Origin: a virus
Taxonomy: Duplodnaviria; Heunggongvirae; Uroviricota; Caudoviricetes
Length of the DNA stretch: 49,836 nt
IMG/VR virus record: IMGVR_UViG_2563366803_000005
Coordinates: 1 to 49,836 of that record
Strand: one strand, 5' to 3'
Shown here: positions 4,324 through 49,836 of the stretch, in pieces
How the letters are laid out: each line of letters opens with the position of its first letter
Numbering within the stretch: the first letter of the stretch is position 1
The notes under the pieces: model-generated
What the model saw: only the letters and a program-made list of their open reading frames with translations
Told to the model about the DNA's origin: nothing
The model's database searches: none
Position numbers and translations under genes: made by a program

Positions 4324-4898
4324 TATCGCGTCCTCAACAATGAATTTTGTGATGCAGTGCCTGGTGCCTCCAGGTGACGTTAACCAGTTAACAATTAACG
4401 CCGGGTTAGTTGATGCTCGTTACGCCAGTAAAAGACCGCCTTACTGCTTTAACTGTTCCGCGTGCGCTCAGCCGCATTCACCGCATCACAAAATTCACTT
4501 TAAAAAGGGCGGCAGAGCAGTCACGGAGTAAAACTGATACCGCCAAACGTCACCAGAAAATTGATAACAGAGGGCGTTGCAGCGGGGTTGTCACTTAAGC
4601 GTATGGTCAACCTGACAACCCGGTGTCCTCAACGGGGGAAGGAATAACCCCGCCATATTTACCGCCGCGCCATTTCGCGGATTGCCACAACCGGAAGCGC
4701 ACGGTCGACGAAAATTTAACGACAGGCTATCTATGAACCAGCTACCTCGCCGTACGCTTTCGCGTTATGGTCTGACTTTTCAGGGAAATATCCTTTCAGT
4801 AAACTGTCAGTGCCGGATTCTTATCCGTGTCCGGCGCACGACCACACGCTGTCACGAGAGGTCTCCATTCTCAACCAGTAACCTCAATGGAGGATAAA

Positions 4899-6737: not shown

Positions 6738-6834
6738 GTGGTAATTATCTTTAGTAATCACTAAACAAGCAAATACTTGACTTAATGGTTTATTAAACAC
6801 TAAACTCGCAAAAAAACACTAAACCGAGGAAGGT
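6738..6834. promoter_or_regulatory. Divergent operator/promoter region with three CACTAAAC repeats
   Basis: CACTAAAC at 6759-6766, 6798-6805 and 6817-6824. Candidate rightward promoter TTGACT (6777-6782), 18-nt spacer, TAAACT (6801-6806), its -10 overlapped by repeat 2. RBS GAGGAAGG before ATG 6835. Confidence 0.5.
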
Positions 6835-7559: not shown

Positions 7560-7581
7560 AAGCACGGTGTTCGGGGGTTTT

Positions 7582-8544
7582 ATGAGCAGCAAGCTTCATG
7601 GTCTTGTCTGGGAAGGGTGCGCCTTCACCGGCATGATCTTATCCAGGGTGGCGGTTATGGCCCGTCTTGCAGACTACAGCAATGACGAGGGTGTGTCATG
7701 GCCTGCCATTGAAACTATCCGGCGTCAGATCGGTGCAAGAAGTGAATCCACAGTGAAATCGGCTATTGCAGAACTGGCGAAAGAGGGCTGGCTGACGAAG
7801 GAAGAGCGTAAGGTCGGTGGGCGTAATGTAAGCAATATCTATCGGCTTAATGTGGAAAAACTCGAAGCAGCTGCGGCGGCGGCGCGTGAGTCATATAAAC
7901 CGAAAAGAAAAATTAGCCCGGCAAAAAATGACCCGTTAACAGTTGACCCGTCAAATATTGACCCCTCAACGGTTGACCCGTCAAATTTTGATGGATCAAC
8001 TGTTGATAAAAAACTGCCGATTAGGGGGGCGATGATTGACCCCGATCCGTCAGTATTAAAACCTGATCCGTCAGATAAAAGATCTTCTTGTCCGGACGCT
8101 TCGCAACCGGACCCGCAGACGGCTGAACAGGATTTTTTAACCCGACACCCTGACGCGGTTGTGTTCAGTGCGAAAAAACGCCAGTGGGGAAGTCAGGAAG
8201 ATTTGGTGTGCGCACAGTGGATCTGGGGACGAATCGTGAGTCTTTACGAGCAGGCGGCCAGCTATGATGGCGAGATCACTAGACCGAAAGAACCCAACTG
8301 GACAGCATGGGCCAATGACGTTCGCACAATGCGGATGCTGGATGGCAGAACTCACAGACAAATTTGTGAAATGTTTGGGCGTCTCCAGCGGGATTCGTTC
8401 TGGGTAAAAAACATCATGAGTCCGGCAAAACTCCGGGAAAAATGGGATGAACTGGTTATCCGCCTGGGGCGTTCGCCTGCGCAGCGTTGCGTGAATCACA
8501 TTTCTGAACCGGACACTGAAATACCGCCGGGATTCAGGGGGTGA
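7582..8544 (+). CDS. Replication initiation protein (lambda O-like) with internal iterons
   Basis: About 320 aa. N-terminal wHTH-like region; the central peptide repeat DPLTVDPSNIDPSTVDPSNFDGSTVD is encoded by DNA iterons; C-terminal domain. Followed by a DnaC-like loader. Confidence 0.7.
   Translation: MSSKLHGLVWEGCAFTGMILSRVAVMARLADYSNDEGVSWPAIETIRRQIGARSESTVKSAIAELAKEGWLTKEERKVGGRNVSNIYRLNVEKLEAAAAAARESYKPKRKISPAKNDPLTVDPSNIDPSTVDPSNFDGSTVDKKLPIRGAMIDPDPSVLKPDPSDKRSSCPDASQPDPQTAEQDFLTRHPDAVVFSAKKRQWGSQEDLVCAQWIWGRIVSLYEQAASYDGEITRPKEPNWTAWANDVRTMRMLDGRTHRQICEMFGRLQRDSFWVKNIMSPAKLREKWDELVIRLGRSPAQRCVNHISEPDTEIPPGFRG
7929..8080. repeat. Putative replication origin: iterons (TTGACCCNTCAA) within the O-like gene
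   Basis: Direct repeats tgacccgttaac (7929-7940), ttgacccgtcaaat (7943-7956), ttgacccctcaac (7958-7970), ttgacccgtcaaat (7973-7986); further gatccgtcag repeats at about 8036-8075. Confidence 0.55.
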
Positions 8545-8550
8545 CGTGTC

Positions 8551-9297
8551 ATGAAAAACATTGCGGCAGTTGGGGTTCTTGAACGTATTCGCAGACTTGC
8601 ACCACAGGGGTCGGTTCCACCGTACCGGACGGTGGAGGAGTGGCGGGAATGGCAACTTGCTGAAGGACGAAAACGCAGCGAGGAGATTAACCGCCAGAAT
8701 CGCCAGTTGCGGGTGGAAAAAATCCTGAATCGTTCGGGCATCCAGCCTCTGCACAGCAAATGCTCGTTTGCAAATTATCAGGTGCAGAACGACGGGCAAA
8801 AATACGCGCTGAGCCAGGCCAAATCCATAGCTGACGAACTGATGACCGGGTGCACGAATTTTGTGTTCAGCGGTAAAACCGGCACCGGGAAAAATCACCT
8901 TGCAGCGGCGATGGGCAACCGGCTGATGGTGAAGGGGCGCAGCGTGATTATCGTCACCGTGTCTGACGTCATGAGCGTGTTGCATGACAGCTACGACAAC
9001 GGCAAATCCGGGGAAAAATTTTTACAGGAGCTTTGCGGGGTTGATTTGCTGGTCCTGGATGAAATAGGCGTTCAGCGGGAGACGAAAAACGAGCAGGTGG
9101 TATTGCACCAGATAATTGATCGCCGGACAGCATCACTGTGCAGTGTCGGGATGTTAACAAACCTGAATCATGCCGCAATGAGTACGCTTCTTGGTGAGAG
9201 GATTATGGACCGCATGACCATGAACGGTGGTCGATGGGTGACGTTTAACTGGGATAGCTGGCGTCCAAATGTCAGCAATATGAGGGTTGTGAAGTAA
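8551..9297 (+). CDS. DnaC-like replicative helicase loader (AAA+ ATPase)
   Basis: 248 aa. Walker A GKTGTGKNHLAAA, Walker B LLVLDEIG. Immediately downstream of the O-like gene. Confidence 0.85.
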   Translation: MKNIAAVGVLERIRRLAPQGSVPPYRTVEEWREWQLAEGRKRSEEINRQNRQLRVEKILNRSGIQPLHSKCSFANYQVQNDGQKYALSQAKSIADELMTGCTNFVFSGKTGTGKNHLAAAMGNRLMVKGRSVIIVTVSDVMSVLHDSYDNGKSGEKFLQELCGVDLLVLDEIGVQRETKNEQVVLHQIIDRRTASLCSVGMLTNLNHAAMSTLLGERIMDRMTMNGGRWVTFNWDSWRPNVSNMRVVK

Positions 9298-9318
9298 TTT
9301 TGTCCGGAGGAAATTTTA

Positions 9319-10089
9319 ATGGAAACCGTATCTGACGCACTGAAAGCACTGAAAAAAGCCTCTTCACATGTGGTGGCAGCTCGCCTTGGAATCAGTCGTG
9401 AAGAGGCTGTCAACGAGCTGTGGGAACTCAAAAGAAAAGGCGTCGTTGATAAAACTGGTCACACCTGGTTTCTAGCTGGCGAAGGTGAATCCCGGGTAAC
9501 CGAAGAGCGGCCAGTAAAATCTGAAGCACAGGATATGCTGACCGGGGAGGTCGAACAAAAAGTTACCGCAGACATGATGATTGAGTTTATCGGTCAGGAT
9601 GGGGCTAAAACGTGTGAGGAACTGGCGGGTAAGTTCGGTGTCAGTACTCGCAAGGTTGCTTCCACGCTGGCGGTGGTAACCGCAACGGGGCGGCTGGCAC
9701 GCGTTAATCAGAACGGTAAATTTCGTTACTGCATGCCGGGCGATAATTTACCAGCAGAGCCGAAAGCCGCTCTGGTAACGGAAAGTGATGGTAAGGCCTT
9801 TCCTCAGCCAGCAGGTGCTGCGTTACCAGTCCGGGAAGCCGCAACACAGGAAGAAATTAAAACAGAAACTGTGGCGGACATTGTGCAGCCGTTGCCATCG
9901 TTTACCGAAACGCAAGCAGATGAGCTGATTTTTCCGTCCCTTCGCAGGGCAAACCTGGCGCTGCGCAGGGCGAAAAGTGATGTTCAGAAGTGGGAGCGAG
10001 TCTGCGCCGCGCTGCGGGAGCTGAACAAGCACCGGGATATTGTTCGACAGATTACTGATTCTTCCCGCCGTGTTGTATCGGAAAAGTGA
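9319..10089 (+). CDS. Hypothetical protein with two winged-helix-like segments
   Basis: 256 aa; RBS GGAGG upstream; function not recognisable from sequence. Confidence 0.5.
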   Translation: METVSDALKALKKASSHVVAARLGISREEAVNELWELKRKGVVDKTGHTWFLAGEGESRVTEERPVKSEAQDMLTGEVEQKVTADMMIEFIGQDGAKTCEELAGKFGVSTRKVASTLAVVTATGRLARVNQNGKFRYCMPGDNLPAEPKAALVTESDGKAFPQPAGAALPVREAATQEEIKTETVADIVQPLPSFTETQADELIFPSLRRANLALRRAKSDVQKWERVCAALRELNKHRDIVRQITDSSRRVVSEK

Positions 10090-10104
10090 TTGCCGGAGGC
10101 GCTT

Positions 10105-10437
10105 ATGGCAAAAGTATTTACACAAGAAGAGCGGGAAAAAATTAAAGGGCAGGTTGTTGAACTTGTACGTCTGAGCGGTCGCGAGACGTTGCGGCAACTG
10201 GAAGCCAAGACAGGTGCGACAAGATATCTGATGAGTGTTCTCGCCAGAGAGCTGGTTGCCAGTGGCGATGTATACAACTCTGGTTACGGGTTATTCCCGT
10301 CTGAACAGGCGCGTAAGGACTGGCAAAACGCCCGCAAAAAACTCTCAAGGGCAAATCTGAAGAAACCATCTGTGGTTGATCCTGACCTTATCTGGTCATT
10401 ACCAGACGGAGAAATACGCCGCTACGACAGGCGTTAA
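10105..10437 (+). CDS. Hypothetical protein
   Basis: 110 aa from ATG 10105 (MAKVFTQEEREKIKG…); CCGGAGG RBS. Confidence 0.5.
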   Translation: MAKVFTQEEREKIKGQVVELVRLSGRETLRQLEAKTGATRYLMSVLARELVASGDVYNSGYGLFPSEQARKDWQNARKKLSRANLKKPSVVDPDLIWSLPDGEIRRYDRR

Positions 10438-10573
10438 AACATAATCTGTAGCGAGTGCCGGAAGAGCGAAGCTATGCAGCGTGTACTGGCTTTCTATCAG
10501 GGTAATTTTCAGAAGGTGCTGTTGTGAGCCAAATTAACAATCGGAACTTCGTGAAGAGAAAGCATAATCCAAA

Positions 10574-10624
10574 TCTGAATAATTAAGTTCAGCACTGTAA
10601 ATAAAATTTAATCCTTAACTGGAG
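10574..10624 (+). repeat. Copy A of a ~50-bp repeated regulatory element (palindrome + RBS)
   Basis: CTGAATAATTAAGTTCAGCACTGTAAATAAAATTTAATCCTTAACTGGAGG; about 85% identical to copy B at 11842-11890. Contains inverted repeat ATTAAgTT…AAtTTAAT; ends in the SD for the ORF at 10633. Confidence 0.55.
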
Positions 10625-10632
10625 GTATATCT

Positions 10633-10845
10633 ATGTCAAATACACAGAAAATTATTAACACTGAAAAATATAACGAGTGGGTGAAAAAATTCTCTGAGCA
10701 GATTTTTAAAATTACTGGCGACGAGAATGTGGCAAAAAATGAATTAGAACCGTGGACACCTGAAGGAAACGCACCAAATTATTGCTGGTGGGAGGTTGAT
10801 CCGGTTGATGCTGCAAATGAAGCCATGAGTTACCACAACGATTAA
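10633..10845 (+). CDS. Hypothetical small acidic protein
   Basis: 70 aa; GGAGG RBS 7 nt upstream; follows repeat copy A. Confidence 0.45.
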   Translation: MSNTQKIINTEKYNEWVKKFSEQIFKITGDENVAKNELEPWTPEGNAPNYCWWEVDPVDAANEAMSYHND

Positions 10846-10854
10846 TGTCGGGAG

Positions 10855-10872
10855 GCCGCCCGAAAGGGCGGT
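10855..10872 (+). promoter_or_regulatory. SD-hairpin-AUG element (CCGCCC-GAAA-GGGCGG stem-loop), copy 1
   Basis: GGGAGG (10850-10855), 6-bp G/C stem with GAAA tetraloop, then ATG at 10878. The same 22-nt element recurs at 11915-11936. Confidence 0.5.
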
Positions 10873-10877
10873 AAGAA

Positions 10878-11096
10878 ATGACTACATTATTGAGAAAAGA
10901 ATATCCGCAAAAAAGTAGGGCAACAGAATTTTTGTTTCTCATTCTGTTTATCGTATTGATGATACCGATATCCCCTCTAATTTTTGTCTGGGCAATCGGG
11001 AAAATAATTGAGCCAGTTACTGAATTGTATACCGACGTTGTATGGGCGTCGTTCAACATACTGCACAATAAAATTAATCCGTATAAGGAAAACTGA
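10878..11096 (+). CDS. Hypothetical small membrane protein
   Basis: 72 aa with a long hydrophobic segment (FLFLILFIVLMIPISPLIFVWAIG); start preceded by the hairpin element. Confidence 0.45.
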   Translation: MTTLLRKEYPQKSRATEFLFLILFIVLMIPISPLIFVWAIGKIIEPVTELYTDVVWASFNILHNKINPYKEN

Positions 11097-11097
11097 T

Positions 11098-11361
11098 ATG
11101 GCAACTTTGACAAAAAAAGAACGGGCATGGTTGAACGAATTACAGGAAGTTCTTGATCGCTGTCCATCACCGAAAAAAATTGGCTTTTACACCATTGGCG
11201 ATAAAAGCATTTACCTGTATGACCTACGCCGCATGGATGAAATCATGGAGGCTCTTGATAATCGTTCGTCGATGGATTGGTGTGTTGCTGTTCATGATAT
11301 GAATGCAGGGTTTGATGAAAAGATTTTGTTCCCCTCATCAGTTGAAAGCACTGCGGGTTAA
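11098..11361 (+). CDS. Hypothetical protein
   Basis: 87 aa from ATG 11098 (MATLTKKERAWLNELQEVL…); AAGGAAA RBS; ATG 1 nt after the upstream stop. Confidence 0.5.
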   Translation: MATLTKKERAWLNELQEVLDRCPSPKKIGFYTIGDKSIYLYDLRRMDEIMEALDNRSSMDWCVAVHDMNAGFDEKILFPSSVESTAG

Positions 11362-11371
11362 GGAGTAACAC

Positions 11372-11515
11372 ATGACCACTATTACCAAAGAACGTATTGA
11401 ATTGTTCATTAAATTTTCAGGAGGCGGTACTGTGAGTGAAATTAGCTATCAGGCTTCAATTACCGCTGGCATTCGCATCAAAGGAGAGGAGCATGGAAAT
11501 AAAACCAGAGGATGA
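11372..11515 (+). CDS. Possible 47-aa micro-ORF
   Basis: Strong RBS AAGGAG 7 nt before ATG 11372 (MTTITKERIELFIKFSGGG…); overlaps the next gene start in another frame. Below the ORF-track length cutoff. Confidence 0.3.
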   Translation: MTTITKERIELFIKFSGGGTVSEISYQASITAGIRIKGEEHGNKTRG

Positions 11516-11849
11516 GTTAAGCAATATCGTTTTATTTCCGGTAAAAGAGGATGACCCTCGTAATCAGGTTAATTTTCTTTATGAGCCATCGGAAAGACCA
11601 TATTGTCATCACGCCTCTGTCCGGGTTGACGAAAAAGAGCGTCAGGTCCGCTGTAAAATCTGCGGTGCAGTTGTGGAGCCATTTGACTGGATGCTCTCTG
11701 TGGCGAAAAGAGAAACCAGACTGGCAGATGATGTAAGGCACTTGCGCCAGGAGGAGCGGGAAAGGCGAAAAAATATAGAAAAGCTAATTCAGATTGAGCG
11801 TAACGCGAAAGCGCGGATACGCAGGGCGACAAAATCCAGAACTGAATAA
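11493..11849 (+). CDS. Hypothetical protein with putative zinc-ribbon (CHH…CKIC)
   Basis: 118 aa from ATG 11493; AAGGAGAGGAG RBS; Cys/His cluster YCHHASVRVDEKERQVRCKICG; basic C-terminus. Confidence 0.5.
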   Translation: MEIKPEDELSNIVLFPVKEDDPRNQVNFLYEPSERPYCHHASVRVDEKERQVRCKICGAVVEPFDWMLSVAKRETRLADDVRHLRQEERERRKNIEKLIQIERNAKARIRRATKSRTE

Positions 11850-11890
11850 TTAAATTTAGCTCTGTTAAAAATTTAATCCTTAACCGGAGG
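11842..11890 (+). repeat. Copy B of the ~50-bp repeated regulatory element
   Basis: CTGAATAATTAAATTTAGCTCTGTTAAAAATTTAATCCTTAACCGGAGG, with perfect inverted repeat ATTAAATTT-N12-AAATTTAAT. Confidence 0.55.
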
Positions 11891-11918
11891 GATTTCTGCA
11901 CCCTCAGAACATCAGGAG

Positions 11919-11936
11919 GCCGCCCGAAAGGGCGGT
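11919..11936 (+). promoter_or_regulatory. SD-hairpin-AUG element, copy 2
   Basis: AGGAGG then CCGCCC-GAAA-GGGCGG, then ATG at 11943. Confidence 0.5.
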
Positions 11937-11942
11937 AGTTAA

Positions 11943-12125
11943 ATGCGAAAGTTTAAAATAATTATTGAAACGGGAATAGCCGGTGGAGATTTCGAGGATG
12001 AATTCGAAGTGGATGATGATGCGACGCCTGATGAAATACATGACGAAGCAAAAGATATTTTCTTTAACTACTGCAATTACTCATATCACGAAATAAAAGA
12101 CGAAGAGGAAGAGCAAAATGGCTGA
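11943..12125 (+). CDS. Hypothetical very acidic 60-aa protein
   Basis: About one third Asp/Glu (…DFEDEFEVDDDATPDEIHDE…EIKDEEEEQNG). Confidence 0.4.
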   Translation: MRKFKIIIETGIAGGDFEDEFEVDDDATPDEIHDEAKDIFFNYCNYSYHEIKDEEEEQNG

Positions 12126-12294
12126 TTTTGGTTCAACTAAATACAACGTCAGTTTTGAAGCATGGCATGAACTGTTAATGGACTATGCAGAGTTACGTGG
12201 TGGCAGTGCTGCTGATGCTGAAGCATGGCGTGATGATTATGAAGCAGGAAAAACTCCGGTCGAAGCATATTGTGATGAGTGGGGCGATGAATGA
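12118..12294 (+). CDS. Hypothetical acidic 58-aa protein
   Basis: MADFGSTKYNVSFEAWHELLMDYAELRGG…; overlaps the upstream stop and downstream start (ATGA at 12291-12294). Below the ORF-track length cutoff; found by reading the DNA. Confidence 0.4.
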   Translation: MADFGSTKYNVSFEAWHELLMDYAELRGGSAADAEAWRDDYEAGKTPVEAYCDEWGDE

Positions 12295-12680
12295 GCGAGA
12301 TTAATTATCAGGAAGGGCATGAAACGGCAGGGCAGGCAAAACCAGTTGCATGGCGATATCGCTACGTGAAAAAAGACGTTACAGACTTTCAGGGGAAGCC
12401 GTGGGCTGGTGACTGGAAATATGTACCGACAAAAGAGGATTGTAACGACAGGCCGAACTATGAAATTCAGGCCTTATTCATCGGCCCGCCAGTCCCGGTG
12501 ACATCAGAAGGACTGGTTAAAGCCGTGCGCTTTTATGAACAGGTAAAGCGTGAGAATCCGCCAGTCGAAACAGGAGCATGGAAGGATGCTGTTGACTGGG
12601 TGCTCAGAGAGGCCTGCTGCGCTGCCATTCTGGGTAAGCCGACAATCCACCAGCATCCGGCAATCAGGTTAGCGAATTAA
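12291..12680 (+). CDS. Hypothetical protein
   Basis: 129 aa; translationally coupled to neighbours; no recognisable motif. Confidence 0.5.
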   Translation: MSEINYQEGHETAGQAKPVAWRYRYVKKDVTDFQGKPWAGDWKYVPTKEDCNDRPNYEIQALFIGPPVPVTSEGLVKAVRFYEQVKRENPPVETGAWKDAVDWVLREACCAAILGKPTIHQHPAIRLAN

Positions 12681-12682
12681 CA

Positions 12683-12805
12683 ATGTGGGTTAAACGACTG
12701 GTCAGTCAACTGAAAAAAGCTCAGCCGGACTGCAAATTACCGGAGAAGGCGATGGATTACCTGAAACGAAATGGACTGATAAGCGTGGAGGATGTTTTAC
12801 GATGA
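12683..12805 (+). CDS. Possible 40-aa micro-ORF
   Basis: ATG 12683 two nt after the upstream stop (MWVKRLVSQLKKAQPDCKLPEKAMDYLKRNGLISVEDVLR). Confidence 0.25.
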   Translation: MWVKRLVSQLKKAQPDCKLPEKAMDYLKRNGLISVEDVLR

Positions 12806-12925
12806 ATATTTAGACTAAAGAGTTTGTAACGCTATGTAAGTGATTTTTTCTGGTTTAGATATTTATATGTCCGGCCAAATTGAGGTGTGTTTAAATGTTA
12901 TTGCACATTGATTGTAGGGGGAATA

Positions 12926-13105
12926 ATGAAAAACGCATTGCAGTTTTTGTTTGTTGCGTTCTGGTTGTTCGCATCATGTATGCCCATCATCTTCACAGCA
13001 AGGTATATGGAAAAAATTGATGTTTTGATATTAATGTTTGGACATATAAATGCCCTTTTTTTAGGGGTGTTCATGGCGGTCATGTGCATTGAATACTGGC
13101 GGTAA
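12926..13105 (+). CDS. Hypothetical small membrane protein
   Basis: 59 aa from ATG 12926 (MKNALQFLFVAFWLFASCMPIIF…); RBS AGGGGGA; two hydrophobic segments; AT-rich. Confidence 0.4.
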   Translation: MKNALQFLFVAFWLFASCMPIIFTARYMEKIDVLILMFGHINALFLGVFMAVMCIEYWR

Positions 13106-13363
13106 ATACAGCGAACGCCATTGGTTTAGTTGGATATTTACTGTGCCGGACAAAAACGGTTTGCGGGGAAATCTTAGTTAAGTAGAATGACTGCGGGTGC
13201 TTGAGGCTATCTGTCTCAGGCATGAACACCAAAAGGCAGATAGAGAAAAGCCCCAGTTAACATTACGCGTCCTGCAAGACGCTTAACATTAATCTGAGGC
13301 CATATCTATGCGACACATAGAGATTAGCCTCTTACGGACCGAAAGGTCAAGGAGAAGCAGGCT

Positions 13364-13519
13364 ATGAAGCAGCAAAAGGCGATGTTAATCGCCCTGATCG
13401 TCATCTGTTTAACCGTCATAATGACGGCACTGGTAACGAGGAAAGACCTCTGCGAGGTACGAATCCGAACCGGCCAGACGGAGGTCACTGTCTTCACAGC
13501 TTACGAACCTGAGGAGTAA
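13364..13519 (+). CDS. hok: Hok/Gef-family type I toxin
   Basis: 51 aa (MKQQKAMLIALIVICLTVIMTALVTRKDLCEVRIRTGQTEVTVFTAYEPEE); Hok pattern with one TM helix and LTRK-x-LCE-x-R motif. A 19-codon upstream ORF (13308-13367) ends in ATGA overlapping the hok start. Confidence 0.8.
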   Translation: MKQQKAMLIALIVICLTVIMTALVTRKDLCEVRIRTGQTEVTVFTAYEPEE

Positions 13520-16385: not shown

Positions 16386-16756
16386 TGTGGTAAATGGGCG
16401 GCTGGTGGGTGTGGTGGTTGTTGCTTTCCCGTTGCTGAAAAAGAAAACGCCAGACTGTTAGCCGGGTATCAGTTATCTGGAGAAATTTTTAAATACCTCA
16501 CAATTCAGGCGGTTGACTGTTGTCTGGTTTGCGGGGAGTTTGTTAAAAGAAACTGGTATGGTGAATCCCCCTGTGCGGAGGGGCAATCAGCAACTGGTGT
16601 TTTGTCACCGACCCTTATCCTTTCTGTGCGGGTTCAGGTGCTGATACTGAACTCACCGGGAGGCACCCGGCATCATGCAATGGCACATAGCGCCACTCTC
16701 CAGCCCCTCTCCGGAGGGGCTGTTTATATTGATTTTGTCAGATGTGAGTAAACTCC

Positions 16757-44477: not shown

Positions 44478-45185
44478 CACAGAAAACCCCCAGCTAGGCT
44501 GGGGGTTCCGGAAAGCTTTCAGCTTTAAGCCAGTTATTAAAACCCCTTTTGATTTGTTAAAACACCTTGCGGTCTGGCAACTGCAAGTGTCAAACAAGAA
44601 ATCAAAAGGGGGTCCCAATGGGGAACGAAAAGAGCTTAGCGCACACCCGATGGAACTGTAAATATCACATAGTTTTTGCGCCAAAATACCGAAGACAGGT
44701 GTTCTACAGAGAGAAGCGTAGAGCAATAGGCAGTATTTTGAGAAAGCTGTGTGAGTGGAAAAGTGTACGGATTCTGGAAGCTGAATGCTGTGCAGATCAT
44801 ATCCATATGCTTGTGGAGATCCCGCCCAAAATGAGCGTATCCGGCTTTATGGGATATCTGAAAGGGAAAAGCAGTCTGATGCTTTACGAGCAGTTTGGTG
44901 ATTTGAAATTCAAATACAGGAACAGGGAGTTCTGGTGCAGAGGGTACTACGTCGATACGGTGGGTAAGAACACGGCGAAGATACAGGATTACATAAAGCA
45001 CCAGCTTGAAGAGGATAAAATGGGAGAGCAGTTATCGATTCCCTATCCGGGCAGCCCGTTTACGGGCCGTAAGTAACGAAGTTGGATGCAAATGTCAGAT
45101 CGTGTGCGCCTGTTAGGGCGCGGCTGGTAAGAGAGCCTTATAGGCGCATTTGAAAAACCTCCGGCTATGCCGGAGGATATTTATT
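44478..45185 (+). mobile_element. IS200-family insertion sequence (about 0.7 kb, boundaries approximate)
   Basis: Single tnpA gene flanked by terminal hairpins: left CCCCCAGC-TAG-GCTGGGGG (44487-44505), right CCTCCGG-CTATG-CCGGAGG (45158-45176). Lies between lom and stf. Confidence 0.6.
44618..45076 (+). CDS. tnpA: IS200/IS605-family transposase TnpA (Y1 HUH)
   Basis: 152 aa (MGNEKSLAHTRWNCKYHIVFAPKYRR…HIHMLVEIPP…RNREFWCRGYYVDTVG…); HxH and catalytic Tyr motifs. Confidence 0.85.
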   Translation: MGNEKSLAHTRWNCKYHIVFAPKYRRQVFYREKRRAIGSILRKLCEWKSVRILEAECCADHIHMLVEIPPKMSVSGFMGYLKGKSSLMLYEQFGDLKFKYRNREFWCRGYYVDTVGKNTAKIQDYIKHQLEEDKMGEQLSIPYPGSPFTGRK

Positions 45186-45200
45186 TATTGGTGGAAAAGT

Positions 45201-48200
45201 ATGACAGTAAAAATTTCTGGCGTGCTTAAAGATGGCACAGGAAAACCAGTACAGAACTGCACCATTGTGCTGAAGGCCAGACGAACCAGCAGCACGGTGG
45301 TGGTGAACACGGTGGCCTCTGAAAATCCGGATGAAGCCGGACGTTACAGCATGGATGTTGAGCATGGCCAGTACAGCGTCACCCTGCTGGTTGAAGGTTT
45401 TCCGCCTTCACATGCCGGGACCATTACCGTCTATGAAGGTTCCAGACCAGGTACGCTGAATGATTTTCTCGGTGCCATGACGGAGGATGATGTCCGACCG
45501 GAGGCACTGCGCCGCTTTGAGCAGATGGTGGAAGAGGTGTCACGTAACGCCTCCGCGGTTGCACAGAATACGGCAGCCGCGAAAAAATCAGCCAGCGAGG
45601 CGGCAACTCATGCAACCGATGCTGCAGCCTCAGCACGTGCCGCCAGCACGTCAGCCGGACAGGCCGCGTCGTCGGCTCAGTCAGCGTCTTCCAGCGCAGG
45701 AACGGCATCGACAAAGGCCCGTGAAGCAGCAAAAAGTGCTGCTGCTGCAGAGTCATCAAAAAGCGCGGCAGCTACCAGCGCCAGTGCCGCGAAAACGTCA
45801 GAAACGAATGCCGCAGCATCACAAAAATCGGCAGCCACTTCTGCATCCACAGCGACCACGAAGGCGTCAGAAGCTGCCACCTCGGCACGGGGTGCGGCGG
45901 CCTCAAAAGAGGCAGCGAAATCTTCAGAAACGAATGCATCATCAAGTGCCAGTAGTGCAGCTTCCTCGGCAACGGCGGCAGGAAATTCCGCGAAGGCGGC
46001 AAAAACGTCCGAGACGAACGCTAAGTCTTCTGAAACAGCAGCGGGACAGAGCGCCTCAGCTGCGGCAGGTTCAAAAACAGCGGCTGCATTATCTGCCAGT
46101 GCCGCGTCAACAAGTGCCGGGCAGGCCTCAGCCAGTGCCACCGCCGCCGGAAAATCGGCAGAAAGCGCCGCATCATCCGCTTCAACAGCCACAACGAAAG
46201 CTGGCAAAGCCACTGAGCAAGCCACTGCAGCAGCGAGGTCTGCTTCTGCAGCAAAAACCTCTGAAACAAATGCAAAGACTTCAGCAGACAATGCTGCTTC
46301 CTCTAAGGCGGCAGCCGCATCGTCAGCCAGTTCAGCGGCGTCATCGGCATCATCTGCGTCTGCTTCAAAAGATGAGGCGACCAGACAAGCGTCAGCAGCG
46401 AAAGGTAGTGCCACGACAGCAACAACGAAAGCATCAGAGGCGGCAGGCAGTGCGACGGCTGCATCTCAGAGCAAAGTTGCTGCTGAATCCGCGGCAACGC
46501 GCGCCGAGACAGCAGCAAAACGGGCAGAGGATATTGCATCCGCCGTGGCGCTGGAGGATGCGAGCACGACGAAAAAGGGGATAGTACAGCTCAGCAGTGC
46601 AACAAACAGCACCAGTGAAAAGCTGGCGGCAACGCCAAAGGCAGTTAAAACTGTTAAAGATAGTTCAGTTCAAAAAACTGGCGACACAATGGGAGGGCAG
46701 TTAAAAATCAGCACGATAAATGCTCTTCGAATATTCAACCAAGCCTTTGGCCTTATTTTTAGGCGTTCCGAAGATCATCTTCATCTTATTCCGACTAATG
46801 AAGGGGAGGGGGAAAATGGAGACATCGGTTCATTAAGACCATTCTCTATAAACTTAAGATCAGGGTTGGTGTCCATCGGTAATGGACTAAAAGTTGGTGG
46901 TAGTGTTACTGGTAATTTGACCGGAAACGCAGATACTGCGACCAAGATCAAGACAGCACGTAAGATTGGGGGCGTGGCATTTGATGGATCGGCAGATATC
47001 AACTTGCCTGGAGTCAACGCTACCGGTAATCAAAACACTACAGGTAATGCTGCGACCGCCACGAAACTTCAGGCAGCCAGAACGATTAACGGTGTGTCAT
47101 TTGATGGTAGTGCAAATATCACATTGACCCCTTCAAATATTGGGGCATTGGCATTAACTGGAGGGACTCTTTCAGGTGGTTTAACTGCTGCTGGTGAGGT
47201 TATTTCAAGGTCAGCAAATGGTCTGCGTATTGCCTATGGCAACTATGGATTCTTTATCCGAAATGATGGATCAAACACATATTTTATGTTGACAGATTCG
47301 GGTAACAGTCTTGGTACGCACAATAGCTTAAGGCCGTTTATAATTAGTAACCATACTGGCAATGTTACAATTGCAACTAAATTAAACGCGAGTGGTGGTA
47401 TCACTGGATCTTTATCGGGTAATGCAAGCACAGCAACCAAATTGCAAACTGCAAGGACAATTAACGGCGTAAAATTTGACGGCTCGGCAAATATTGAAGC
47501 GTTTCCGCCAGGTGTTCCGCTGCCGTGGCCATCAGATACACCACCTGCAGGTTATGCGATCATGCAGGGGCAGACGTTTGATAAGGCAGCATATCCGAAA
47601 CTGGCTATTGCCTATCCTTCAGGTGTTATTCCAGATATGCGCGGCTGGACAATCAAGGGCAAACCCGCTAGTGGCCGGGCCGTATTGTCTCAGGAACAGG
47701 ACGGCATAAAATCGCACACCCACAGCGCCAGCGCATCCAGTACGGATTTGGGGACGAAAACCACATCGTCGTTTGATTACGGCACTAAATCCACGAATAA
47801 CACCGGGGCGCATACGCACAGTCTGAGTGGCTCTACGGGGTCTGCCGGTGTTCATACTCATGGTAATGGTATTCGTTGGCCAGGAGGCGGCGGTTCTGCG
47901 TTAGCATTTTATGATGGCGGTGGGTTCACTTATGTCCAGAATTCACAGTATCAAGTAAGCCCGGAGACTTCTTCCTATAGATCGTATTATCAACGTATTC
48001 AGACACAGTCAGCAGGTGCTCATACCCACTCGCTGTCTGGTACTGCAGCAAGTTCTGGCGCACATGCACATACTGTAGGTATTGGTGCGCATACGCACTC
48101 CGTTGCGATTGGTTCACATGGACACACCATCACCGTTAACGCTGCGGGTAACGCGGAAAACACCGTCAAAAACATCGCATTTAACTATATTGTGAGGCTT

Positions 48201-48206: not shown

Positions 48207-48790
48207 TGGCATTCAGAATGAGTGAACAAGCACGGACCATAAAAATTTATAATCTGCTGGCCGGAACTAATGAATTTATTGGTGAAGGTGACGCATATAT
48301 TCCGCCTCATACAGGTCTGCCAGCAAACAGTACCGATATTGCACCACCAGATATTCCTGCTGGCTTTGTGGCTGTTTTCAACAGTGATGAGGCATCGTGG
48401 CATCTCGTTGAAGACCATCGGGGTAAAACGGTTTATGACGTAGCGTCAGGGGACGAGTTATTTATTTCTGAACTCGGTCCGTTACCGGAAAATGTTACCT
48501 GGTTATCGCCGGAAGGGGAGTTTCAGAAGTGGAACGGCACAGCCTGGGTGAAGGATACGGAAGCAGAAAAACTGTTCCGGATCCGGGAGGCGGAAGAAAC
48601 AAAAAACAACCTGATGCAGGTAGCCAGTGAGCATATTGCGCCGCTTCAGGATGCTGCAGATCTGGAAATTGCAACGGAGGAAGAAACCTCATTGCTGGAA
48701 GCCTGGAAAAAGTATCGGGTGTTGCTGAACCGTGTTGATACATCAACTGCACCTGATATTGAGTGGCCTACGAACCCTGTCAGGGAGTAA
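48206..48790 (+). CDS. tfa: Tail fibre assembly protein (Tfa)
   Basis: 194 aa; ATG overlaps the stf stop; Tfa-like C-terminus (…[45 protein letters not shown]…). Confidence 0.85.
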
Positions 48791-49569: not shown

Positions 49570-49836
49570 ATGCTGCCGCAGCATAGCGATATTGAAATAG
49601 CCTGGTATGCTTCGATACAGCAGGAGCCGAATGACTGGAAGACCGTCACCACACAGTTCCACATCCAGGAATTCAGTGAATATATTGCGCCACTGCAGGA
49701 TGCTGTAGATCTGGAAATCGCAACGGCGGAAGAAAGATCGTTGCTGGAGGCATGGAATAAATATCGGGTATTGTTGAATCGTGTTGATACATCAACTGCA
49801 CCTGATATTGAGTGGCCGACTTCACCTGCAGAGTAA
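49570..49836 (+). CDS. Tfa C-terminal-domain paralogue (truncated tail-fibre assembly gene)
   Basis: 88 aa with its own RBS (ACAAGGGG); C-terminal about 50 aa roughly 85% identical to the Tfa C-terminus at 48206-48790. Confidence 0.45.
49685..49836 (+). repeat. ~150-bp direct repeat of the tfa 3' end (partner of 48640-48790)
   Basis: GCC(G/A)CT(T/G)CAGGATGCTG…GTTGATACATCAACTGCACCTGATATTGAGTGGCC…; flanks the methyltransferase gene. Confidence 0.6.

What the first reader, a model, noticed from the sequence alone, without database searches (positions are those of the whole stretch)
10574..11890. ~50-bp repeated palindrome-containing element upstream of two early ORFs
CTGAATAATTAA(G/A)TT(C/T)AGC(A/T)CTGT…AAATTTAATCCTTAAC(T/C)GGAGG occurs at 10574-10624 and 11842-11890 (about 85% identity). 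Copy B contains a perfect inverted repeat ATTAAATTT-N12-AAATTTAAT. Each copy ends in an SD and precedes a small ORF, suggesting a shared operator or sRNA-like regulatory module, or a recombination hotspot for module exchange.
Basis: seen in the sequence. Interest (0 to 1): 0.5.

Follow-up and report, generated by a model that had tools for sequence, protein, structure and literature searches.

The report
Shared gene-junction spacer in coliphage prophages
The repeat is real, but it is the front half of a roughly 95-base spacer between genes that recurs between many different small accessory genes in E. coli prophages; it most likely supplies ribosome-binding sites and a short patch of homology where phages swap genes, and it is not a repressor operator or a small RNA.

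Summary
The two copies exist: 10575-10625 and 11842-11890 are 86% identical, and the wider 10563-10632 and 11830-11897 are 83% identical. None is expected by chance.

They are the 5' half of a larger intercistronic module:
- a stop-codon cluster, CTGAATAATTAA
- an AT-rich leader
- a first Shine-Dalgarno site (SD1), GGAGG
- either a 24-nt spacer or the 70-codon ORF70
- a second GGAGG (SD2) fused to a GC hairpin with a GNRA loop
- 5-8 nt, then the next gene's ATG

Copy B (11842-11936) is the intact module. Copy A is split by ORF70, into 10575-10632 and 10846-10877.

The host is a lambda-like E. coli prophage. The module occurs in 2,687 of 5,426 complete E. coli genomes, up to 9 times per genome. 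It sits between at least 5 upstream and 9 downstream protein families in more than 40 combinations, and homology breaks sharply at its edges. Variant sites within the 50-nt element occur in every combination, so crossovers fall inside it.

There is no promoter, terminator or Rfam match, and no covariation. The inverted repeat decays without compensating changes. This prophage's operator-like repeats are unrelated CACTAAAC motifs.

Verdict: this is an ordinary but well-populated mosaic boundary sequence that also serves as a translation-initiation region. It is a new member of a known kind, of low to moderate interest.

The parts
10563..10574 (+). Left extension of copy A (CATAATCCAAAT). It is homologous to the last codons of ORF119 at 11830-11841. 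Here it lies in a 20-codon remnant ORF (GTG at 10524 to TAA at 10586).
   Evidence: The remnant's frame is not conserved in related loci.
10575..10632 (+). Copy A, the 5' half of the module. It holds the stop cluster CTGAATAATTAA, the AT-rich leader, the first Shine-Dalgarno site (SD1) GGAGG at 10621-10625, and a 7-nt spacer. It is the translation-initiation region of ORF70.
   Evidence: The same segment precedes ORF70 in 78 of 78 loci chosen by ORF70 alone.
10633..10845 (+). ORF70 (phrog_4659, function unknown). It is the only insert seen between the two halves of the module.
   Evidence: The distance from the 5' half to the hairpin is always 44-47 nt or 240-247 nt.
10846..10877 (+). Copy A, the 3' half of the module. 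It holds the second Shine-Dalgarno site (SD2) GGAGG at 10851-10855, the hairpin GCCGCCC-GAAA-GGGCGGT at 10855-10872, and then 5 nt before the ATG of the DUF4014 gene at 10878.
   Evidence: The fold is -18.8 kcal/mol with z = -4.2.
11830..11841 (+). Left extension of copy B. It is the last codons of ORF119 (11493-11849).
11842..11890 (+). Copy B, the 5' half of the module. It holds the stop cluster (the ORF119 stop TAA is at 11847-11849), the AT-rich leader with the 9-bp AT-only inverted repeat at 11849-11877, and an orphan SD1 at 11886-11890.
11891..11914 (+). The 24-nt spacer GATTTCTGCACCCTCAGAACATCA, which takes the place of ORF70 in the compact form. Its CCCTC can pair with SD1.
   Evidence: Helix 2 is 98.8% paired but shows no covariation.
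11915..11942 (+). Copy B, the 3' half of the module. It holds SD2 GGAGG at 11915-11919, the hairpin at 11919-11936, and then 6 nt before the ATG of the DUF7167 gene at 11943.
10504..10542 (+). A second junction repeat, first copy: the 3' end of the DUF977 gene plus an SD and a GTG start reading MSQINN. It is 77% identical to 11412-11450.
11412..11450 (+). The second junction repeat, second copy, lying inside ORF47 just upstream of ORF119.

Best explanation
The two copies are two instances of one conserved intercistronic junction module. The module belongs to the arrays of small accessory genes (ea/nin-type) found in lambda-like and Rac-like prophages of E. coli.

**Shown**
- The unit runs from the stop codon of one gene to the start codon of the next, about 95 nt in its compact form.
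- It consists of a stop-codon cluster, an AT-rich leader and a first Shine-Dalgarno site (SD1); then either a 24-nt spacer or ORF70; then a second Shine-Dalgarno site (SD2) fused to a GC hairpin with a GNRA loop.
- The flanking genes differ from place to place. Homology ends at the module's edges.
- Variants inside the element are reassorted.

**Inferred**
1. At the RNA level the 5' half is the ordinary ribosome-binding region of ORF70: an AU-rich leader, GGAGG, 7 nt, then AUG.
2. The 3' half is a split ribosome-binding site. The hairpin folds away 18 of the 22-23 nt between GGAGG and AUG, which brings the effective spacing to 5-6 nt. Whatever gene sits downstream is therefore translated after a long untranslated gap.
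3. At the DNA level the module is a 50-100 bp patch of 83-100% homology. Phage Rad52-like recombinases (or RecA) can cross over in it. This reassorts the cassettes on either side and deletes or duplicates the 1.27 kb between two copies in one genome.

Whether the module is maintained because it promotes exchange, or only because its translation signals are needed, is not resolved.
For: **One unit, not two**
- In 1.24 Mb of IMG/VR loci every hairpin lies 44-47 or 246-247 nt after the 5' half.
- The same holds for 49 of 49 further loci found through the hairpin alone, and for 78 of 78 loci found through ORF70 alone.

**Variable flanks**
- There are 15 upstream and 21 downstream nucleotide clusters, in more than 40 combinations.
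- There are at least 5 upstream and 9 downstream protein families.
- Among representatives with unrelated flanks, mean pairwise identity is about 0.25 outside the module and 0.8-1.0 inside. It changes within about 25 nt on the left and about 8 nt on the right.

**Exchange inside the element**
- All combinations of left tail (A or B type), the AAATA/TTA indel, and the downstream form (ORF70 or spacer) are found.
- Arrangements that match the predicted recombination products exist. One is DUF977 - ORF137 - module - DUF7167 in phage 640R1. Another is the A-type tail followed by the compact module and DUF7167 in L018.

**Spread**
- 5,005 places in 2,687 of 5,426 complete E. coli genomes, up to 9 per genome.
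- In a scan with one genome per species, the exact 22-mer is found only in E. coli and Shigella flexneri, plus one contig of a Collinsella MAG.

**Translation role**
- SD1 lies 7 nt before the ATG of ORF70.
- The hairpin is stable: -18.8 kcal/mol, z = -4.2.
- The start codons of at least 8 unrelated downstream gene families lie 5-10 nt after it, 86 of 102 at 5-8 nt.
- In T4 genes 38 and 25 an intervening hairpin likewise reduces a 22-nt or 27-nt SD-AUG gap to 5 or 11 nt (PMC3014915).

**Plausibility of recombination**
- Rad52-like phage recombinases, RecT of Rac among them, recombine short and diverged homologies. About 30 bp is quoted as the minimum for Red-beta (PMC3945230).
- Short conserved boundary sequences are an established proposal for lambdoid mosaicism (Clark et al. 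2001 and Susskind & Botstein 1978, as cited in PMC3029335).

**Constraint**
- Nucleotide diversity in the module (0.018) equals that of codon positions 1+2 of the neighbouring ORF119 (0.018). It is below that of position 3 (0.056).
Against: - No helix shows covariation beyond the controls. There is one compensatory cell in 936. The RNA roles therefore rest on thermodynamics and spacing, not on evolutionary proof.
- All sequences come from one recombining gene pool, E. coli and Shigella prophages. Sharing of the module could reflect recent spread rather than selection.
- The diversity comparison is biased, because 22 nt of the module were fixed by the search pattern.
- The stop cluster is absent from a diverged variant of the 5' half. 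Real upstream genes use only one of its three frames clearly.
- In the compact form SD1 has no start codon.
- The 3' arm of the hairpin (GGGCGG) could itself act as a weak SD when the hairpin is melted. That would be an alternative to the split-site reading.
- No experiment on recombination or translation was possible.
Confidence: 0.7

Rival explanations
1. Passive relic. The element is just the 5' untranslated leader of ORF70, and the hairpin is the 3' trailer. Where ORF70 has been deleted, the fused leftovers persist without function. They look shared only because this block spread recently among E. coli prophages.
For: - ORF70 is always embedded in the module, and it is the only insert ever seen there.
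- SD1 in the compact form has no start codon.
- There is no covariation.
- The taxonomic range is narrow.
Against: - The compact form is the commoner one and is well conserved, with diversity like codon positions 1+2.
- It is joined to at least 5 upstream and 9 downstream gene families, so it does not simply travel with ORF70.
- The start codons of unrelated genes keep a 5-10 nt distance from the hairpin.
- The 24-nt spacer shows no clear similarity to the ends of ORF70 (read directly).
Confidence: 0.18
2. A cis-acting regulatory RNA or a small RNA. The roughly 95-nt transcript segment, with three possible hairpins, would bind a protein or an sRNA, or would be processed, to control the downstream genes or transcript stability.
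For: - The 113-nt region folds somewhat better than shuffles (z = -2.2), and the GC hairpin much better (z = -4.2).
- The loops are GNRA tetraloops, GAAA or GGCA.
- SD1 can pair either with upstream AAUCCUU or with downstream CCCUC.
Against: - No Rfam family matches, even at E <= 10.
- There is no promoter or terminator, so it is not an independent transcript.
- Covariation does not exceed the shuffles.
- The AT-rich helices lose pairs without compensation.
Confidence: 0.08
3. An operator or promoter module. The AT-rich inverted repeat would bind the prophage repressor or a Cro-like protein, or another DNA-binding protein, to control the two downstream ORFs.
For: - Copy B holds a perfect 9-bp inverted repeat, which never occurs in shuffles.
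- The half-site ATTAAATTT is enriched in the window: 4 occurrences against 0.6 expected, all of them in this gene array.
Against: - There is no sigma-70-like promoter within or beside either copy.
- Copy A has only 7 of 9 complementary positions, and a 13-nt spacer rather than 11 nt.
- In samples chosen without reference to the element, the arms mutate without compensation. Examples are AAATCTAAT, AAATAGAAT, AAATTCAAT and a diverged TTTATTAAAT variant.
- The operator-like repeats in the immunity region are CACTAAAC x3, which are unrelated.
- Both copies lie inside a co-directional gene array downstream of the replication genes.
Confidence: 0.04

Closest known systems
Short conserved boundary (linker) sequences at mosaic joints of lambdoid phages (Susskind & Botstein 1978; Clark et al. 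2001 on HK620; cited in PMC3029335)
   Same: - It is a short conserved sequence placed exactly between genes.
- It is flanked by unrelated sequence in different phages.
- It is a plausible substrate for homologous recombination that reassorts modules.
- Crossovers inside it are detectable.
   Different: - This particular sequence is not in the searchable literature.
- It is unusually long for a linker (about 95 nt) and unusually abundant (5,005 copies in complete E. coli genomes).
- It carries recognisable translation signals, and it can host a whole small gene (ORF70) in its middle.
Split ribosome-binding sites of phage T4 genes 38 and 25 (Nivinskas et al. 1999; Malys & Nivinskas 2009; reviewed in PMC3014915)
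   Same: - The gap from the Shine-Dalgarno sequence to AUG is 22-23 nt, too long to work as a linear site.
- A stable hairpin spans the gap and leaves 5-6 nt of effective spacing. T4 gene 38 goes from 22 nt to 5 nt.
   Different: - It is unrelated in sequence and in host phage.
- Here the same hairpin serves at least 8 unrelated downstream genes rather than one gene.
- No mutational or structure-probing evidence exists for it.
Lambdoid immunity operators (OR/OL-type dyads bound by CI and Cro)
   Same: It contains an inverted repeat, and it is repeated within one prophage.
   Different: - It is not beside a promoter.
- The dyad and its spacing are not conserved.
- It is unrelated to the CACTAAAC repeats in this prophage's own immunity region.
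- It lies deep inside an operon.
Integron gene cassettes with attC sites
   Same: Small promoterless ORFs lie in a co-directional array, separated by a recurring structured element.
   Different: - There are only two module copies in the array; the other junctions are tight overlaps.
- No integron integrase is present.
- Nothing resembles the imperfect palindrome of an attC site spanning a cassette end.
- The exchange pattern fits homologous rather than site-specific recombination, because the crossovers are spread along the element.

Membership tests
Mosaic boundary / linker sequence of lambdoid phages | A short conserved sequence located at a gene boundary | tested here: met
   The module runs from the stop codon of the upstream gene to the start codon of the downstream gene.
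Mosaic boundary / linker sequence of lambdoid phages | Flanked by non-homologous sequence on either side in different genomes | tested here: met
   There are 15 upstream and 21 downstream clusters in more than 40 combinations. Identity falls to about 0.25 outside the module.
Mosaic boundary / linker sequence of lambdoid phages | Recombination occurs within the conserved sequence | tested here: met
   All combinations of three linked variant sites inside about 70 nt are present. This is an inference from the pattern of variants; no crossover was observed directly.
Mosaic boundary / linker sequence of lambdoid phages | Raises the exchange frequency in phage crosses | not testable with these tools
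   This needs marked phage crosses with and without the module.
Split ribosome-binding site (T4 gene 38/25 type) | SD-to-AUG distance too long for a linear site | tested here: met
   There are 22 nt between GGAGG (10851-10855) and the ATG at 10878, and 23 nt between GGAGG (11915-11919) and the ATG at 11943.
Split ribosome-binding site (T4 gene 38/25 type) | A stable hairpin between the SD and AUG that restores a working distance | tested here: met
   The 7-bp GC stem with a GAAA loop folds at -18.8 kcal/mol, z = -4.2. It leaves 5-6 nt in the window and 5-10 nt across at least 8 downstream gene families.
Split ribosome-binding site (T4 gene 38/25 type) | The structure is supported by compensatory changes or by mutagenesis | tested here: inconclusive
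   The stem is 95.3% paired. Most changes are G-C to G-U. There is only one double change, which is no better than the shuffles.
Repressor operator | A conserved dyad with fixed spacing, next to a promoter, resembling the phage's other operators | tested here: not met
   There is no promoter. The dyad decays without compensation and its spacing varies. The immunity-region repeats are CACTAAAC.
Known RNA family or independent small RNA | A match to a curated family, or its own promoter and terminator together with covariation | tested here: not met
   There is no Rfam match at E <= 10 in 10000-12600. No promoter or terminator was found. Covariation is not above the controls.
N-utilisation (nut) site: boxA plus boxB | A conserved boxA followed within about 10 nt by a hairpin with a 5-nt loop, close to an early promoter | tested here: not met
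   GCTCTGTTAA in copy B looks like boxA (a resemblance recalled from memory). However, it varies across copies as GCACTGT, GTGTTGT, GTTCTGT and GCGCTGT. The GC hairpin is 50 nt away, has a 4-nt loop, and occurs twice within 1.3 kb in the middle of an operon.

The most novel reading that the evidence does not exclude
The roughly 95-nt module may be a selectively maintained plug-and-play adaptor for accessory genes. It would end translation of whatever lies upstream. Through the split ribosome-binding hairpin it would guarantee translation of whatever lies downstream. It would also give phage recombinases a standard homology patch. On this reading half of all E. coli genomes share a common socket through which prophages trade small genes.
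Probability: 0.2. Interest if true: 0.55.

Novelty: new member of a known kind. Interest (0 to 1): 0.3.

Why it matters
Conserved boundary sequences were proposed decades ago as the sites where lambdoid phages exchange modules. They cannot be found at most mosaic joints, so their importance is disputed (PMC3029335).

This module is a clear and very abundant example. It has sharply defined edges, dozens of flank combinations and internal reassortment. That makes it a convenient natural substrate for measuring how much short homology patches contribute to prophage mosaicism.

It also suggests that a single structured ribosome-binding unit is reused by many unrelated accessory genes.

It does not change how prophage regulation is understood.

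Tried and rejected
- **Promoter and terminator scan of 9000-13500:** nothing in or beside the element.
- **Rfam at a permissive threshold:** only chance-level hits, none on the element.
not above the shuffles.
- **Operator comparison with the immunity region:** the repeats there are unrelated.
- **nut-site reading (boxA plus boxB):** the boxA-like string is variable, the hairpin is 50 nt away, and its loop has 4 nt.
- **Leader-peptide reading of the 24-nt spacer:** the only candidate starts are ATT and CTG. Indels (G-run length) and the differing 3' ends after the hairpin break every frame.
- **Compact form as a simple ORF70 deletion:** beyond TCAGGAGGCC, the spacer shows no clear similarity to the 3' end of ORF70, so the direction of change is undecided.
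- **Three-frame stop cluster as a designed feature:**
  - The sequence does carry TGA, TAA and TAA in the three frames.
  - Real upstream genes use mainly one frame.
  - A diverged variant of the module lacks the cluster.
- **BLAST of a synthetic copy A x copy B recombinant against E. coli genomes:**
  - The top hits were two-piece matches to the DUF977 - ORF137 - module arrangement, so this search was not decisive.
  - The A-type tail followed by the compact module was instead seen directly in IMG/VR loci.
- **Integron-like cassette reading:** rejected; see the closest-known comparison.
- **Literature search for the three core strings:** no paper contains them.
Full report
**1. Context**

The window is a complete lambda-like prophage of E. 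coli. It is 99.9% identical to a prophage of ATCC 25922 and of ST131 strains, lying next to potB.

The gene order is:
- integrase, excisionase, exonuclease, dicB
- an immunity region of YdaS/YdaT type
- replication genes
- an array of small co-directional ORFs
- hokD, DUF968, RusA
- lysis, head and tail genes

The finding lies in the small-ORF array:

| Feature | Coordinates |
|---|---|
| DUF977 pseudogene | 10105-10527 |
| ORF70 (phrog_4659) | 10633-10845 |
| DUF4014 | 10878-11096 |
| ORF87 | 11098-11361 |
| ORF47 | 11372-11515 |
| ORF119 (phrog_1621) | 11493-11849 |
| DUF7167 | 11943-12125 |

**2. The observation**

About zero matches are expected from shuffles. Identity is 44/51 (86%) for 10575-10625 against 11842-11890, with a 2-nt indel. 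Over the extended repeat, 10563-10632 against 11830-11897, it is 58/70 (83%).

The perfect inverted repeat in copy B is ATTAAATTT-N11-AAATTTAAT at 11849-11877. Copy A has 7 of 9 complementary positions and a 13-nt spacer.

Copy A is followed by ORF70 at a normal distance: GGAGG, 7 nt, ATG. Copy B is not. The next ATG is 52 nt downstream.

**3.

A second repeat, GGAGGCCGCCCGAAAGGGCGGTA, lies at 10851-10873 and 11915-11937. It directly precedes the next gene in each case.

Comparison with other phages shows how the two repeats relate:
- In ArgO145 the order is ORF119 - element - ORF70 - hairpin - DUF7167.
- In phage 640R1 it is DUF977 - ORF137 - element - hairpin - DUF7167.

Three database samples show that the two repeats are halves of one unit:
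- In 1.24 Mb of IMG/VR loci recovered with the right-half pattern, the hairpin always lies 44-47 nt or 246-247 nt after the element.
- In 49 further loci recovered through the hairpin alone, the element is always 46, 240 or 247 nt upstream.
- In 78 loci recovered through the ORF70 protein alone, the element always precedes ORF70 and the hairpin always follows it.

So there is one module in two forms. In the compact form the halves are separated by a 24-nt spacer; this is window copy B, 11842-11936. In the split form ORF70 sits between the halves; this is window copy A, 10575-10632 plus 10846-10877.

**4. The module is a junction between variable genes**

Clustering 300-400 nt on each side of 131 instances gave 15 upstream and 21 downstream clusters, in more than 40 combinations. 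At the protein level there are at least 5 upstream families. These include ORF119, two Ea22-like proteins and short remnants. There are at least 9 downstream families, including DUF7167, DUF4014 and several Ea22-like proteins.

Among representatives with unrelated flanks, mean pairwise identity is about 0.25 outside the module and 0.8-1.0 inside. The change takes place within about 25 nt on the left and about 8 nt after the hairpin on the right. A diverged variant keeps only AATCCTTAACCGGAGG onward, so there are nested left joints.

Three linked variant sites occur in every combination: the left tail of A or B type, the AAATA/TTA indel, and ORF70 versus spacer. This indicates crossovers inside the roughly 70-nt element.

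A third repeat pair, 10504-10542 and 11412-11450, is another such junction. It consists of the 3' end of DUF977 plus a start reading MS(E/Q)I(N/S)YQ. That start string occurs three times in the window.

**5. Spread**

The 105-nt module matches 5,005 places in 2,687 of 5,426 complete E. coli genomes, up to 9 per genome. Only 20 of 50,697 deposited phage genomes carry the 5' half; most of these are Escherichia and Stx2a-converting phages, and two are Rac records. In a scan with one genome per species, the exact 22-mer is found only in E. coli and Shigella flexneri, plus one contig of a Collinsella MAG. None of three core strings of the module appears in the searchable literature.

**6. Regulatory readings tested**

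- No sigma-70-like promoter and no intrinsic terminator lies in or beside either copy.
- Rfam gives nothing on the element, even at E <= 10.
- I counted pairs for three candidate helices on 52 distinct compact-form sequences. The helices were CUGAAU/AUUYAG around the stop codons, GGAGGG/CCCUC, and the GC hairpin. They were 95-99% paired, but covariation was no better than the shuffles, with only one double change.
In samples not selected on it, the right arm also mutates without compensation: AAATCTAAT, AAATAGAAT and AAATTCAAT, and it is replaced in the diverged variant.
- The operator-like repeats in this prophage's immunity region are three CACTAAAC motifs at 6757-6825, which are unrelated to the element.

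The operator and sRNA readings are therefore not supported.

**7. How it most likely works**

Shown: the module is the complete intercistronic region, and it is shared among unrelated gene pairs.

Inferred for the 5' half: it is the ribosome-binding region of ORF70. In the compact form its GGAGG has no start codon, and it can pair with flanking sequence.

Inferred for the 3' half:
- Its GGAGG lies 22-23 nt before the ATG, too far for a linear site.
- The intervening 18 nt form a stable hairpin with a GNRA loop (-18.8 kcal/mol, z = -4.2). This leaves 5-6 nt of effective spacing.
- Across at least 8 unrelated downstream gene families the start codon sits 5-10 nt after the hairpin, and at 5-8 nt in 86 of 102 cases.
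- This matches the split ribosome-binding sites of T4 genes 38 and 25, where the gap goes from 22 nt to 5 nt and from 27 nt to 11 nt (PMC3014915).
- Most loci chosen by the downstream gene alone carry the module: 77 of 80 for DUF7167 and 58 of 61 for DUF4014. Three DUF4014 genes instead use an ordinary site.

Inferred at the DNA level: a 50-100 bp patch of 83-100% identity is enough for Rad52-like phage recombinases. These tolerate short and diverged homology, and about 30 bp is quoted as the minimum for Red-beta. RecT of Rac was among the recombinases tested (PMC3945230).

Nucleotide diversity in the module (0.018) equals that of codon positions 1+2 of ORF119. It is a third of that at position 3 (0.056). 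This hints at constraint, but 22 nt were fixed by the search pattern.

**8. Comparison with known kinds**

The module fits the short conserved boundary sequences proposed for lambdoid mosaicism (Susskind & Botstein 1978; Clark et al. 2001; cited in PMC3029335). It meets the three features that can be tested by computation.

It works like a T4-type split ribosome-binding site, but that rests on anatomy only. It fails the tests for an operator, a curated RNA family, a nut site and an integron attC site.

**9. Verdict**

The feature is a new, very abundant member of a known kind. It has low to moderate interest (0.3). Its main value is as a clean natural test case for the linker model of phage mosaicism.

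Noticed in passing
window 10851-10873 and 11915-11937: A second exact repeat, GGAGGCCGCCCGAAAGGGCGGTA. It is a Shine-Dalgarno sequence fused to a 7-bp GC hairpin with a GAAA loop, ending 5-6 nt before the ATG of DUF4014 and of DUF7167. It looks like a split ribosome-binding site of the T4 gene 38 type.
   Followed up: yes
window 10504-10542 and 11412-11450: A third repeat pair, 77% identical. It is the 3' end of the DUF977 gene, with an internal AGGAGG-like site and an overlapping GTGA stop/start. It is another shared gene junction. In phage 640R1 (L002) the 908 nt between the two copies are absent.
   Followed up: partly
window 10525-10544, 11433-11452, 12292-12311: The string TGAG(C/T)..A.AT.A...A.C.G, encoding an N-terminus of the form MS(E/Q)I(N/S)YQ, occurs three times (0.01 expected). 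Only the copy at 12291 heads an intact gene. The other two look like 5' remnants of Ea22-like genes left at mosaic joints.
   Followed up: partly
window 10105-10527: RefSeq annotates the DUF977 (LygF-like) gene as a pseudogene with an internal stop (TAA at 10435-10437). The 20-codon ORF that follows it (10524-10586) is not conserved in frame in related loci.
   Followed up: no
window 6757-6825: Three copies of (A/T)CACTAAAC lie between the divergent immunity genes, around a TTGACT -35-like hexamer. They are probably the operators of this prophage. They are unrelated to the element under study.
   Followed up: partly
window 7908-7982: Four head-to-tail 15-nt units containing TTGACCC lie inside the replication-initiator gene (7567-8544). 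They look like origin iterons, as in lambda O.
   Followed up: no
window 13195-13366; 4507-4558 (-); 16527-16731; 44485-44608; 48549-48747: Rfam matches at gathering threshold: sok (next to hokD), DicF, STnc100, STnc490 and IS009.
   Followed up: no
L071, L064 and related IMG/VR loci (module spacer): In some copies the spacer after the first GGAGG is replaced by a G run of variable length (GGAGGGGGGGGCTGCACC with 7 or 8 extra G). It may be a slippage-prone tract.
   Followed up: no
IMG/VR loci L210-L258: A diverged form of the 5' half, ACTGAAGATTTAAATCAGAAACGATTTTTATTAAATCC, follows a different upstream gene. It lacks CTGAATAATTAA. It joins the common sequence at AATCCTTAACCGGAGG, which is the most invariant core of the element.
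   Followed up: partly
IMG/VR loci among L259-L338 (3 of 80): Upstream of three DUF7167 genes the hairpin is cut in its 5' arm (..GGGGATCCCTCAGGCCCGAAAGGGCGGTAGTGAAATG). This is a mosaic joint inside the hairpin itself.
   Followed up: no
window 48614-48771 and 49663-49820; 45576-46280: A 158-nt direct repeat (86% identical) lies near the tail-fibre end of the prophage, overlapping the IS009 RNA match. Five loosely similar 33-nt units lie in the tail-fibre gene.
   Followed up: no
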